Positions 2,594-8,540 of a stretch of DNA of 64,000 nt are shown one piece after another (position 1 is the first letter of the stretch; each line of letters begins with the position of its first letter). Source of the DNA: the human T2T-CHM13v2.0 reference genome, Homo sapiens; the NCBI RefSeq assembly GCF_009914755.1, contig NC_060941.1, one strand, 5' to 3'. The notes beneath the pieces were generated by a model. The model was not told the origin of the DNA. It saw nothing but the letters and a program-made list of their open reading frames with translations, and ran no database searches. Both the position numbers and the translations under genes were made by a program.

Positions 2594-2890
2594 GGTCACC
2601 TCTGTCCAGTCAGCCAGTCTTAATCACCGTCCAGCGGCAGCTACCACAGGCCATCAAGCCTGTCACCTACACTGTGGCCACCCCAGTGACCACCTCGACC
2701 TCCCAGCCACCCGTCGTGCAGACGGTTCACGTCGTCCACCAGATCCCAGCGGTGTCGGTCACCAGTGTGGCCGGACTGGCCCCAGCGAACACGTACACTG
2801 TCTCTGGACAAGCTGTGGTCACCCCGGCAGCCGTGCTGGCCCCTCCTAAGGCAGAGGCCCAGGAGAATGGAGACCACAGGGAAGTCAAAG
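2594..2890 (+). CDS. FOXK2: FOXK2 coding exon (exon 7)
   Basis: tctttcaccag|GG acceptor, AAAG|gtaggc donor. Encodes (G)[30 protein letters not shown]...[12 protein letters not shown](V). 297 nt, phase 1-1. Confidence 0.95.
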
Positions 2891-5800: not shown

Positions 5801-8540
5801 GAAAGGTGGGCAGTGGGGAAAGGAGGAGAGGGGAGACCACAGGGAGGTGAAAGGTGGGCAGTGGGGGAAAGGAGGAGAGGGGAGACCACAGGGAGGTGAA
5901 AGGTGGCCGGGGGGGAAAGGAGGAGAGGGGAGACCACAGGGAGGTGAAAGGTGGGCGGAGGGGAAAGGAGGAGAGGGGAGACCACAGGGAGGTCAAAGGT
6001 GGGCGGAGGGGAAAGGAGGAGAGGGGAGACCACAGGGAGGTCAAAGGTGGGCCGGGGGGGAAAGGAGGAGAGGGGAGACCACAGGGAGGTGAAAGGTGGG
6101 CAGTGGGGGAAAGGAGGAGAGGGGAGACCACAGGGAGGTCAAAGGTGGGCGGAGGGGAAAGGAGGAGAGGGGAGACCACAGGGAGGTGAAAGGTGGGCGG
6201 AGGGGAAAGGAGGAGAGGGGAGACCACAGGGAGGTGAAAGGTGGGCCGGGGGGGAAAGGAGGAGAGGGGAGACCACAGGGAGGTGAAAGGTAGGCGGAGG
6301 GGAAAGGAGGAGAGGGGAGACCACAGGGAGGTGAAAGGTGGGCCGGGGGGGAAAGGAGGAGAGGGGAGACCACAGGGAGGTCAAAGGTGGGCAGTGGGGG
6401 AAAGGAGGAGAGGGGAGACCACAGGGAGGTCAAAGGTGGGCGGAGGGGAAAGGAGGAGAGGGGAGACCACAGGGAGGTGAAAGGTGGGCGGGGGGGAAAG
6501 GAGGAGAGGGGAGACCACAGGGAGGTCAAAGGTGGGCGGGGGGGAAAGGAGGAGAGGGGAGACCACAGGGAGGTGAAAGGTGGGCGGAGGGGAAAGGAGG
6601 AGAGGGGAGACCACAGGGAGGTGAAAGGTGGGCCGGGGGGGAAAGGAGGAGAGGGGAGACCACAGGGAGGTGAAAGGTGGGCAGTGGGGGAAAGGAGGAG
6701 AGGGGAGACCACAGGGAGGTGAAAGGTGGGCCGGGGGGGAAAGGAGGAGAGGGGAGACCACAGGGAGGTGAAAGGTGGGCCGGGGGGGAAAGGAGGAGAG
6801 GGGAGACCACAGGGAGGTCAAAGGTGGGCGGGGGGGGAAAGGAGGAGAGGGGAGACCACAGGGAGGTCAAAGGTGGGCCGGGGGGGAAAGGAGGAGAGGG
6901 GAGACCACAGGGAGGTGAAAGGTGGGCCGGGGGGGAAAGGAGGAGAGGGGAGACCACAGGGAGGTGAAAGGTGGGCGGGGGGGAAAGGAGGAGAGGGGAG
7001 ACCACAGGGAGGTGAAAGGTGGGCGGAGGGGAAAGGAGGAGAGGGGAGACCACAGGGAGGTGAAAGGTGGGCGGGGGGGGAAAGGAGGAGAGGGGGGACC
7101 ACAGGGAGGTGAAAGGTGGGCGGAGGGGGAAAGGAGGAGAGGGGAGACCACAGGGAGGTGAAAGGTAGGCGGAGGGGAAAGGAGGAGAGGGGAGACCACA
7201 GGGAGGTCAAAGGTAGGCGGAGGGGAAAGGAGGAGAGGGGAGACCACAGGGAAGTCAAAGGTAGGCGGAGGGGAAAGGAGGAGAGGGGAGACCACAGGGA
7301 GGTCAAAGGTAGGCGGAGGGGAAAGGAGGAGAGGGGAGACCACAGGGAGGTCAAAGGTAGGCGGAGGGGAAAGGAGGAGAGGGGAGACCACAGGGAAGTC
7401 AAAGGTAGGCGGAGGGGAAAGGAGGAGAGGGGAGACCACAGGGAGGTGAAAGGTGGGCGGAGGGGAAAGGAGGAGAGGGGAGACCACAGGGAGGTGAAAG
7501 GTGGGCGGGGGGGAAAGGAGGAGAGGGGAGACCACAGGGAGGTGAAAGGTGGGCCGGGGGGGAAAGGAGGAGAGGGGAGACCACAGGGAAGTCAAAGGTG
7601 GGCAGTGGGGAAAGGAGGAGAGGGGAGACCACAGGGAGGTCAAAGGTAGGCGGAGGGGAAAGGAGGAGAGGGGAGACCACAGGGAGGTCAAAGGTAGGCG
7701 GAGGGGAAAGGAGGAGAGGGGAGACCACAGGGAGGTCAAAGGTAGGCGGAGGGGAAAGGAGGAGAGGGGAGACCACAGGGAAGTCAAAGGTAGGCGGAGG
7801 GGAAAGGAGGAGAGGGGAGACCACAGGGAGGTCAAAGGTAGGCGGAGGGGAAAGGAGGAGAGGGGAGACCACAGGGAGGTCAAAGGTAGGCGGAGGGGAA
7901 AGGAGGAGAGGGGAGACCACAGGGAGGTCAAAGGTAGGCGGAGGGGAAAGGAGGAGAGGGGAGACCACAGGGAAGTCAAAGGTAGGCGGAGGGGAAAGGA
8001 GGAGAGGGGAGACCACAGGGAGGTCAAAGGTAGGCGGAGGGGAAAGGAGGAGAGGGGAGACCACAGGGAAGTCAAAGGTAGGCGGAGGGGAAAGGAGGAG
8101 AGGGGAGACCACAGGGAGGTGAAAGGTGGCCGGGGGGGAAAGGAGGAGAGGGGAGACCACAGGGAGGTGAAAGGTGGGCGGGGGGGGAATGGAGGAGAGG
8201 GGAGACCACAGGGAGGTGAAAGGTGGGCGGAGGGGAAAGGAGGAGAGGGGAGACCACAGGGAGGTGAAAGGTGGGCCGGGGGGGAAAGGAGGAGAGGGGA
8301 GACCACAGGGAGGTGAAAGGTGGGCAGTGGGGGAAAGGAGGAGAGGGGAGACCACAGGGAGGTGAAAGGTGGGCCGGGGGGGAAAGGAGGAGAGGGGAGA
8401 CCACAGGGAGGTGAAAGGTGGGCAGTGGGGGAATGGAGGAGAGGGGAGACCACAGGGAGGTGAAAGGTAGGCGGAGGGGAAAGGAGGAGAGGGGAGACCA
8501 CAGGGAGGTCAAAGGTAGGCGGAGGGGAAAGGAGGAGAGG
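2869..8540. repeat. 48/49-bp purine-rich minisatellite (~117 units) built from the exon 7/intron 7 junction
   Basis: Unit GGAGACCACAGGGAGGT(C/G)AAAG|GT(A/G)GGC[GGAGGGG / CGGGGGGG / AGTGGGG(G)]AAAGGAGGAGAGG. 5672 bp at ~48.5 bp per unit. Confidence 0.98.

What the first reader, a model, noticed from the sequence alone, without database searches (positions are those of the whole stretch)
2869..8540. A 5.7-kb minisatellite made of ~117 copies of the FOXK2 exon 7 splice donor
Seen: the repeat unit is the last 22 nt of exon 7 plus the first 26-27 nt of the intron, so every unit carries AAAG|GT. By eye about 28 are exact AAG|GTAGGC (the real donor at 2891 plus ~27 copies); nearly all others are AAG|GTGGGC. 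Known: U1 choice among duplicated donors often favours the one nearest the acceptor, and G-runs bind hnRNP H/F. Inference: the array is a length-polymorphic bank of competing or decoy 5' splice sites. Use of donor 3 (2988) frameshifts, and use of any later donor includes the TAG at 2989-2991, so the array could tune productive FOXK2 mRNA versus NMD, or act as a U1 sink.
Basis: partly seen in the sequence, partly recalled or inferred. Interest (0 to 1): 0.85.

Follow-up and report, generated by a model that had tools for sequence, protein, structure and literature searches.

The report
FOXK2 splice-donor minisatellite, 117 copies
A 5.7-kb G-rich minisatellite starts inside FOXK2 exon 7 and copies its splice donor 117 times; it is an unusually large example of a known kind of repeat in which, in the studied cases, only the first donor or the first few are used.

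Summary
Window 2869-8540 holds exactly 117 whole units of 48-50 nt. Unit 1 is the last 22 nt of exon 7 plus 26 nt of intron 7. All 117 units keep AAAG|GT: 28 AAG|GTAGGC, 87 AAG|GTGGGC, 2 AAG|GTGGCC. Donor 2 is in frame (+16 aa), donor 3 frameshifts, and later donors include the in-frame TAG at 2989-2991.

The kind is already known. Minisatellites whose first monomer spans an exon-intron boundary are described for F7, IFI6, CBS, LMNB2 and PDGF. F7 minigenes showed that functional pseudo-donors stay silent and the most upstream site wins (PMC1557585).

The array is unique in the genome and lies 816 kb from the 17q telomere. It is 86% purine, has high G-quadruplex potential, and carries a recombination-hotspot motif in 66 of 117 units.

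My best reading is a subtelomeric VNTR with mostly silent pseudo-donors. NMD tuning or a G4 effect on splicing remains untested, because no RNA or population data were available. I found no paper on this locus.

The parts
2594..2890 (+). FOXK2 exon 7 (297 nt); it ends with codon position 1, and its last 22 nt are the exonic part of repeat unit 1
   Evidence: Annotation given with the finding; reading frame verified by translation
2869..8540 (+). Minisatellite of exactly 117 whole units of 48-50 nt, 5672 nt, 29 unit types; 55% G, 86% purine on the sense strand
2888..2896 (+). Authentic exon 7 donor AAG|GTAGGC (cut 2890|2891); 7 of 9 consensus positions
   Evidence: Annotation
2936..2944 (+). 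Pseudo-donor 2, same 9-mer; its use would add 48 nt in frame (16 aa, [16 protein letters not shown])
2985..2993 (+). Pseudo-donor 3 (cut 2987|2988; +97 nt, frameshift); it overlaps the TAG at 2989-2991, which is in frame for read-through and for all later donors
3986..4421 (+). Block of alternating 48/49-nt units (types B and A) forming a 97-nt higher-order repeat; longest exact self-match is 325 nt at lag 97
7143..8103 (+). 3' block (units 89-108) rich in GTAGGC units. It holds the 5 other units identical over all 48 nt to the authentic junction unit (units 91, 94, 102, 106, 108). It includes a 192-nt four-unit higher-order repeat (7624-7815 identical to 7816-8007).
8541..9034 (+). Unique 3' part of intron 7, with a sense Alu-like insert (about 8592-8886, flanked by a direct duplication of aagatttgctcatc) and the exon 8 acceptor. 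The last pseudo-donor (8514|8515) lies 520 nt from the acceptor.
   Evidence: The Alu identification is by eye from recall; no repeat-library tool was run.
9035..9244 (+). FOXK2 exon 8
   Evidence: Annotation

Best explanation
This is a subtelomeric, G-rich minisatellite (VNTR). It arose by tandem duplication of a 48-nt segment spanning the FOXK2 exon 7 / intron 7 junction, and later grew by unequal exchange and local higher-order duplications.

It belongs to the known class of exon-intron-boundary minisatellites, of which F7 IVS7 is the type case. As in that class, I expect the 116 pseudo-donors to be competent but essentially silent.

Inferred mechanism. Exon 7 is defined across its 297 nt by its own acceptor and the first donor that follows it, a 5'-to-3' choice of the most upstream site. 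Only donor 1 has ordinary exon sequence upstream. Every copy has G-runs upstream, which by the recalled position rule repress a donor from the exonic side and enhance it from the intronic side.

Predictions. Donor 1 is used almost exclusively. At most, small amounts of the +48 (in frame) and +97 (frameshift) products appear, as for IFI6 and CBS. Array length has little or no effect on FOXK2 output.

Status of the steps. The anatomy is shown. The silence of the copies and the reasons for it are inferred.
For: Anatomy:
- 117 whole units, with the first spanning the boundary.
- The 9-mer of the authentic donor recurs in 27 of the 116 other units, and 5 of those units match it over all 48 nt.

Precedent (PMC1557585; I read the abstract, Introduction, one Results section and the Discussion):
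- When sites are inactivated one by one, only the next most upstream site is used.
- LMNB2 (10-15 repeats) uses only the authentic donor, and the paper says a similar situation was observed in PDGF (16-18 repeats). IFI6 (25 pseudo-sites) and CBS (15-20 repeats) use the authentic site plus the two nearest pseudo-sites.

Annotation: the RefSeq table supplied with the finding lists only the 2890 donor and no +48-nt isoform, although that product has no premature stop.

Minisatellite hallmarks:
- GC skew about 0.7.
- 816 kb from the telomere.
- Other minisatellites in the same window.
- The 13-mer CCNCCNTNNCCNC occurs 79 times in the window against 5.6 expected; 67 of these are in the array, in 66 of 117 units.
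- Exact higher-order duplications of 97 and 192 nt point to recent turnover.

No protein-coding reading: stop codons occur in all three sense frames (30, 36 and 35).
Against: No RNA data were available, so use of downstream donors, which NMD would hide, is not excluded.

FOXK2's sites match the consensus better than F7's (7 of 9 against 6 of 9), and the array is 5 to 20 times longer than any precedent named in PMC1557585. Extrapolating from those cases is therefore uncertain.

All 117 donors are transcribed before the acceptor at 9035 exists, so timing alone cannot commit splicing to donor 1.

The last GTAGGC donors lie only 520 and 568 nt from the acceptor, a good distance for pairing across the intron.

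The array is rich in purine motifs that could act as exonic enhancers if part of it were taken into the exon.

The G-run position rule is recalled. I saw only search listings for related papers.
Confidence: 0.6

Rival explanations
1. The array is a bank of competing or decoy 5' splice sites. U1 bound at downstream copies diverts part of the pre-mRNA into extended-exon products that carry the TAG at 2989-2991 and are removed by NMD, or delays productive pairing. Array length would then set FOXK2 output.
For: 27 copies share the authentic 9-mer and 5 units are identical to unit 1 over 48 nt. All products beyond donor 2 carry a frameshift or an in-frame stop. The last strong copies lie 520-568 nt from the acceptor. 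No Watson-Crick structure hides the sites: z = +0.94, and 173 of 200 shuffles fold at least as well. IFI6 and CBS do use two pseudo-sites besides the authentic one. NMD would hide such products from annotation.
Against: The F7 minigenes show no competition from identical pseudo-sites. None appeared even among 50 extra subcloned RT-PCR clones examined for every transfection, and sites raised to consensus value 91 were still unused. RefSeq lists no isoform using the in-frame, NMD-immune donor 2, which would be the first sign of competition. 89 of the 116 copies have G or GC changes at +3 or +5. A sink for the whole cell's U1 is implausible, from recalled U1 abundance.
Confidence: 0.15
2. The array acts through its G-rich RNA or DNA rather than through its GT sites. 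It would act as a long intronic G-run / G-quadruplex / R-loop element that binds hnRNP H/F-type proteins or slows RNA polymerase II. It would thereby change intron 7 splicing efficiency, intron retention or local chromatin in a length-dependent way, as reported for the G4-forming VNTR6-1 in TERT intron 6.
For: There are 437 runs of 3 or more G, 3.7 per unit. Mean G4Hunter score is 1.40 over 5.7 kb, and 42% of 25-nt windows reach 1.5 or more, against 0-0.5% elsewhere in the window. There are 94 four-run motifs with loops up to 12 nt. Allowing G4s lowers the predicted RNA energy by 21-45 kcal/mol per 200 nt, and the predicted two-layer G4s include the GG of the donor itself. G lies on the non-template strand with GC skew 0.7, which favours R-loops (recalled principle). 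TERT precedent: abstract of PMC11830802.
Against: There is no canonical G4 with loops of 7 nt or less (0 found). The predicted G4s are two-layer or long-loop and so weak. All of this is prediction only. No G4, R-loop, CLIP or expression data could be consulted.
Confidence: 0.2
3. The size of the array is an assembly artefact or a private expansion of the CHM13 genome, and typical human alleles are much shorter.
For: Only one assembly was available. From memory, and unverified, FOXK2 spans about 84.9 kb in GRCh37/38 against 89.9 kb here (span from the supplied table). That would fit a reference allele about 5 kb shorter.
Against: The array has an orderly internal structure with many variant units and distinct blocks, unlike a collapsed or chimeric assembly. 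A shorter reference allele would indicate polymorphism rather than an artefact.
Confidence: 0.04

Closest known systems
F7 intron 7 (IVS7) 37-bp minisatellite (Borensztajn et al. 2006, PMC1557585)
   Same: The first monomer spans the exon-intron boundary, so the authentic donor is followed by copies that are identical in sequence. The donor is of the GTGGG type. The array lies in the intron of an expressed gene.
   Different: F7 has 5-9 repeats of 37 bp with only 4 nt of exon per unit. FOXK2 has 117 repeats of 48-50 nt with 22 nt of exon per unit. Only 27 of FOXK2's 116 copies keep the exact 9-mer. Which splice sites FOXK2 uses has not been measured.
IFI6 (6-16) intron 2, CBS intron 13, LMNB2 and PDGF intron 4 boundary minisatellites, as listed in PMC1557585
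   Same: A reiterated splice donor in an intronic minisatellite. Only the authentic site is used (LMNB2, and similarly PDGF), or the authentic site plus the two nearest pseudo-sites (IFI6, CBS).
   Different: These have 10-25 repeats against 117 here. I saw them only as summarised in that Introduction and did not read the primary papers.
TERT intron 6 VNTR6-1 (PMC11830802)
   Same: A G-rich intronic VNTR of tens of copies near a chromosome end. It is proposed to shift the balance between the full-length isoform and an NMD-prone isoform through G-quadruplexes. (abstract only)
   Different: The TERT repeat does not start in an exon and does not copy a splice donor. Its effect was shown by deletion and by G4 ligands. 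Nothing comparable exists for FOXK2.
Classical GC-rich hypervariable minisatellites of subtelomeric regions
   Same: Strand-asymmetric G-richness. Position 816 kb from the telomere. Interspersed variant units and higher-order blocks. A recombination-hotspot 13-mer in 66 of 117 units. A 9-nt stretch that I recall as part of Jeffreys' core occurs in 11 units.
   Different: Length variability was not tested here. Most such arrays do not begin inside a coding exon.

Membership tests
Exon-intron-boundary minisatellite (F7 IVS7 type) | Head-to-tail array of a 10-100 bp unit | tested here: met
   Period 48, 117.2 copies, 95% matches; 117 whole units
Exon-intron-boundary minisatellite (F7 IVS7 type) | The first monomer spans the exon-intron boundary | tested here: met
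   Unit 1 = 2869-2916, 22 nt of exon and 26 nt of intron, with the annotated exon end at 2890
Exon-intron-boundary minisatellite (F7 IVS7 type) | The authentic donor sequence is reiterated downstream | tested here: met
   117 of 117 units keep AAAG|GT. 27 of 116 copies have the same 9-mer as the authentic donor, and 5 units are identical to unit 1 over 48 nt.
Exon-intron-boundary minisatellite (F7 IVS7 type) | Pseudo-sites are normally silent, or only the first few are used | not testable with these tools
   No RNA data. The supplied RefSeq table lists only the 2890 donor.
Exon-intron-boundary minisatellite (F7 IVS7 type) | Copy number varies between alleles | not testable with these tools
   Only one assembly is held. 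Exact 97- and 192-nt higher-order duplications suggest recent turnover.
G-quadruplex-forming intronic VNTR acting as a splicing switch (TERT VNTR6-1 type) | Intronic VNTR with high predicted G4 potential on the sense strand | tested here: met
   Mean G4Hunter 1.40; 42% of windows at 1.5 or more; 94 long-loop motifs but 0 with loops of 7 nt or less
G-quadruplex-forming intronic VNTR acting as a splicing switch (TERT VNTR6-1 type) | Isoform ratio depends on repeat length, repeat deletion or G4 ligands | not testable with these tools
   Needs experiments or matched genotype and RNA data
Recombination-driven GC-rich subtelomeric minisatellite | Subtelomeric position and G/C strand asymmetry | tested here: met
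   816,357 bp from the contig end, which carries TTAGGG repeats; GC skew 0.67-0.72
Recombination-driven GC-rich subtelomeric minisatellite | Carries the hotspot 13-mer CCNCCNTNNCCNC (motif recalled from memory) | tested here: met
   79 matches in the window against 5.6 expected. 67 are in the array, in 66 of 117 units. Unit 1 and the other GGAGGGG-type units lack it by one base.
Recombination-driven GC-rich subtelomeric minisatellite | Meiotic instability or hotspot activity | not testable with these tools
   Needs pedigree, sperm or population data

The most novel reading that the evidence does not exclude
The array is a length-polymorphic rheostat acting in cis on FOXK2. Its 116 pseudo-donors and its G-quadruplex-prone RNA hold U1 and hnRNP H/F on the nascent intron. 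A length-dependent share of transcripts is then spliced from downstream donors into stop-containing products that NMD removes, or is retained unspliced. Individuals with different array lengths would make different amounts of this widely used transcription factor. The locus would also be the largest natural test of how a cell picks one donor among more than a hundred near-identical ones.
Probability: 0.13. Interest if true: 0.75.

Novelty: new member of a known kind. Interest (0 to 1): 0.4.

Why it matters
If the pseudo-donors are silent, the locus is an ordinary subtelomeric VNTR that happens to start in an exon. Its main practical consequence is that it complicates read mapping and variant calling at the end of FOXK2 exon 7.

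It is still useful as a natural experiment. With 116 extra donors, 27 of them with the authentic 9-mer, it is several times larger than the F7, IFI6, CBS, LMNB2 and PDGF arrays on which the rule that the most upstream site wins was built.

It also makes a clean prediction. Loss of donor 1 should activate donor 2 and give an in-frame insertion of 16 aa rather than exon skipping.

If array length does affect FOXK2 splicing or level, it would be a hidden regulatory variant of a broadly expressed transcription factor, one that short-read studies cannot see.

Tried and rejected
Literature on this locus:
- FOXK2 + VNTR: 0 papers.
- FOXK2 + minisatellite: 0 papers.
- FOXK2 + tandem repeat: 45 papers, none of the 25 listed relevant.
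- FOXK2 + intron retention: 15 papers, none of the 14 listed about this intron by title or abstract start.

Supplements:
- Lu 2021 (PMC8275641): no FOXK2 and no coordinate near my estimate.
- Cell Genomics 2024 (PMC11701250): no FOXK2.
- Lu 2023 (PMC10234305): FOXK2 appears 3 times, and I saw 2 passages. Both concern a 70-bp locus at GRCh38 chr17:82596478-82596548, with opposite effect signs in thyroid and tibial nerve. That is another VNTR, not this array. No coordinate near my estimate was found. One of its files could not be searched. My GRCh38 coordinate estimate assumes no indels upstream and may be off.
- Hamanaka 2023 (PMC10078293): no FOXK2 in the main text; its supplements were not searched.
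- Two papers asked for by DOI are not held.
- The paper reader closed, so the supplement of PMC13263140 and the primary papers on IFI6, CBS, LMNB2 and PDGF were not read.
- bioRxiv supplements are closed, and VNTR tables there may list this locus.

Readings rejected:
- Coding repeat: stop codons in all three sense frames.
- Structured RNA: z = +0.94.
- Dispersed repeat family: unique in the genome.
- Protection from premature polyadenylation by U1: no AATAAA or ATTAAA anywhere in intron 7.
- CpG island: observed/expected CpG is 0.33.

Not done:
- Quantitative donor scores (MaxEnt, SpliceAI) could not be computed. I used only consensus matches.
- No primate or other human assembly was available, so age and polymorphism are unknown.
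Full report
**What is there**

Reading 2500-9300 and running Tandem Repeats Finder show one array at 2861-8540: period 48, 117.2 copies, 95% matches, score 9771. An equally good period of 97 is also reported.

An 11-nt invariant core occurs 117 times in the 64-kb window, always inside the array. The 116 spacings are 48 nt (62), 49 nt (52) and 50 nt (2).

TRF's earlier start reflects a 6-nt AGGAGA in the exon that also ends each unit. This is a possible microhomology for the founding duplication (inference).

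A search of the whole assembly found 25 matches. 23 are the array itself and two are weak (70-74% identity, on contigs 21 and 10). The repeat is therefore private to this locus.

**The donors**

All 117 units keep AAAG|GT.

The GTAGGC copies cluster in three places: at the 5' end (units 1-4, 7, 9, 12-14), at unit 71, and in the 3' part (units 89-94, 99-108, 116-117).

Six units, including the authentic one, are identical over all 48 nt: units 1, 91, 94, 102, 106 and 108.

Most units carry a second GT 9 nt upstream: GAG|GTGAAA 73, GAG|GTCAAA 37, GAA|GTCAAA 7. The real exon has the weakest of these forms.

By simple consensus matching, the authentic site and the GTGGGC copies both match 7 of 9 positions. 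That is mid-range among the 10 annotated donors of this window. The F7 site matches 6 of 9.

**Coding consequences**

Translation confirms the frame.
- Donor 2 (exon end 2938) adds 48 nt in frame, 16 aa.
- Donor 3 (exon end 2987) adds 97 nt and frameshifts.
- All later donors, and plain read-through, meet the in-frame TAG at 2989-2991.

All three sense frames contain many stops (30, 36 and 35), so the array is not a coding repeat.

**Composition and context**

- The sense strand is 55% G, 30.5% A, 9.8% C and 4.4% T, or 86% purine. CpG observed/expected is 0.33.
- GC skew is 0.67-0.72 across the array and near zero outside it.
- The RNA has no unusual Watson-Crick structure: z = +0.94.
- G-quadruplex potential is high. 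There are 437 runs of three or more G. Mean G4Hunter score is 1.40, and 42% of 25-nt windows reach 1.5 or more, against 0-0.5% in the rest of the window.
- The G4 motifs need loops of up to 12 nt: 94 with loops up to 12 nt, and none with loops of 7 nt or less.
- With G4s allowed, ViennaRNA predicts two-layer quadruplexes that include the donor's own GG pairs.
- The hotspot 13-mer CCNCCNTNNCCNC (recalled motif) occurs 79 times in the window against 5.6 expected. 67 of these are in the array, in 66 of 117 units. The junction-type units miss it by one base.
- The array contains exact higher-order duplications: a 97-nt dimer with a 325-nt exact run, and a 192-nt four-unit block that is repeated identically.
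- It lies 816 kb from the telomeric end of the contig, in a window with several other minisatellites.
- Intron 7 has no AATAAA or ATTAAA.

**What is known**

I found no paper that mentions this repeat:
- FOXK2 with VNTR: 0 papers.
- FOXK2 with minisatellite: 0 papers.
- FOXK2 with tandem repeat: 45 papers, none of the 25 listed relevant.
- FOXK2 with intron retention: 15 papers, none of the 14 listed relevant by listing.

Supplement searches gave nothing for this array. One FOXK2 expression-associated VNTR appears in Lu 2023, but it is a different, 70-bp locus.

The kind, however, is well described. Borensztajn et al. 2006 (PMC1557585; I read the abstract, Introduction, one Results section, the Discussion and the CV method) study the F7 IVS7 37-bp minisatellite, whose first monomer spans the exon 7 boundary. 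They list four further cases: IFI6, CBS, LMNB2 and PDGF.

In F7 the pseudo-sites are functional, but only the most upstream site is used. Inactivating sites one after another activates the next one downstream and increases exon skipping. Sites raised to consensus value 91 were still unused. Only perfect-consensus sites (value 100) shifted splicing, and even they did not abolish use of the upstream site.

[quoted passage not shown] LMNB2 uses only the authentic donor, and the paper reports a similar situation for PDGF.

**How it most likely works**

I rank the silent-copy reading first, at 0.6. Exon 7 is defined by its acceptor and the first donor after it. Only donor 1 has normal exon sequence upstream, while all copies sit behind G-runs. 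The position rule for G-runs is recalled; I saw only listings for related papers.

The supplied RefSeq table lists no +48 isoform, although that product would be stable. This is weak evidence against strong competition.

- All donors are transcribed before the acceptor exists.
- The last strong copies lie only 520-568 nt from the acceptor.
- NMD would hide the products.

A G-run / G4 / R-loop effect that does not depend on the GT sites (0.2) is suggested by the composition and by the TERT VNTR6-1 precedent (abstract only).

An artefact or private CHM13 expansion is unlikely (0.04). From memory only, the reference gene is about 5 kb shorter, which if true would point to large length polymorphism.

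**Limits**

No RNA, CLIP, population or primate data could be consulted. Quantitative splice-site scores were not available.

**Verdict**

This is a new and exceptionally large member of a known kind, and the functional claim is open.

Noticed in passing
window 2883 and 2886 (unit positions 15 and 18): The only two variable positions in the exon-derived part of the units (A/G 7:110 and C/G 44:73) fall on third codon positions of exon 7. Both alternatives are synonymous (GAA/GAG Glu, GTC/GTG Val). Gene conversion from the array into the exon would therefore be silent. Two of two positions could be chance.
   Followed up: partly
window 8575-8898: A sense-oriented Alu-like insert (about 8592-8886, ending in an A-run) lies between the array and exon 8. 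It is flanked by a direct duplication of aagatttgctcatc, which looks like a target-site duplication. Identified by eye from recall; no repeat library was run.
   Followed up: no
window 14747-15252, 36112-36340, 61904-62317, 10357-10478: Several other minisatellites lie in the window (51 bp x 10, 36 bp x 6.3, 33-123 bp complex, 15 bp x 8.1). This fits a subtelomeric, minisatellite-dense region.
   Followed up: no
GRCh38 chr17:82596478-82596548 (outside the array; window position not determined): The Lu et al. 2023 supplement lists a 70-bp VNTR associated with FOXK2 expression in thyroid (effect -0.215) and tibial nerve (effect +0.204), with opposite signs. Which window repeat it corresponds to depends on the unknown length of the array in GRCh38.
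   Followed up: partly
G000:C21:43976544-43976657 and G000:C10:69372032-69372191: These are the only matches to the repeat outside the array. They are weak (74% and 70% identity) and are probably unrelated G-rich repeats.
   Followed up: no
window 2861-8540: The supplied list of the longest soft-masked stretches does not include this 5.7-kb array, although it would be by far the longest. It may be unmasked in NCBI's file. The window file here is all upper case, so this could not be checked.
   Followed up: no
window 2869-8540, minus strand (FOXK2-AS1 intron): The sense strand has no CT dinucleotide, so the antisense transcript of the array has no AG and cannot offer a 3' splice site. It would be a long C/U-rich tract.
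   Followed up: no
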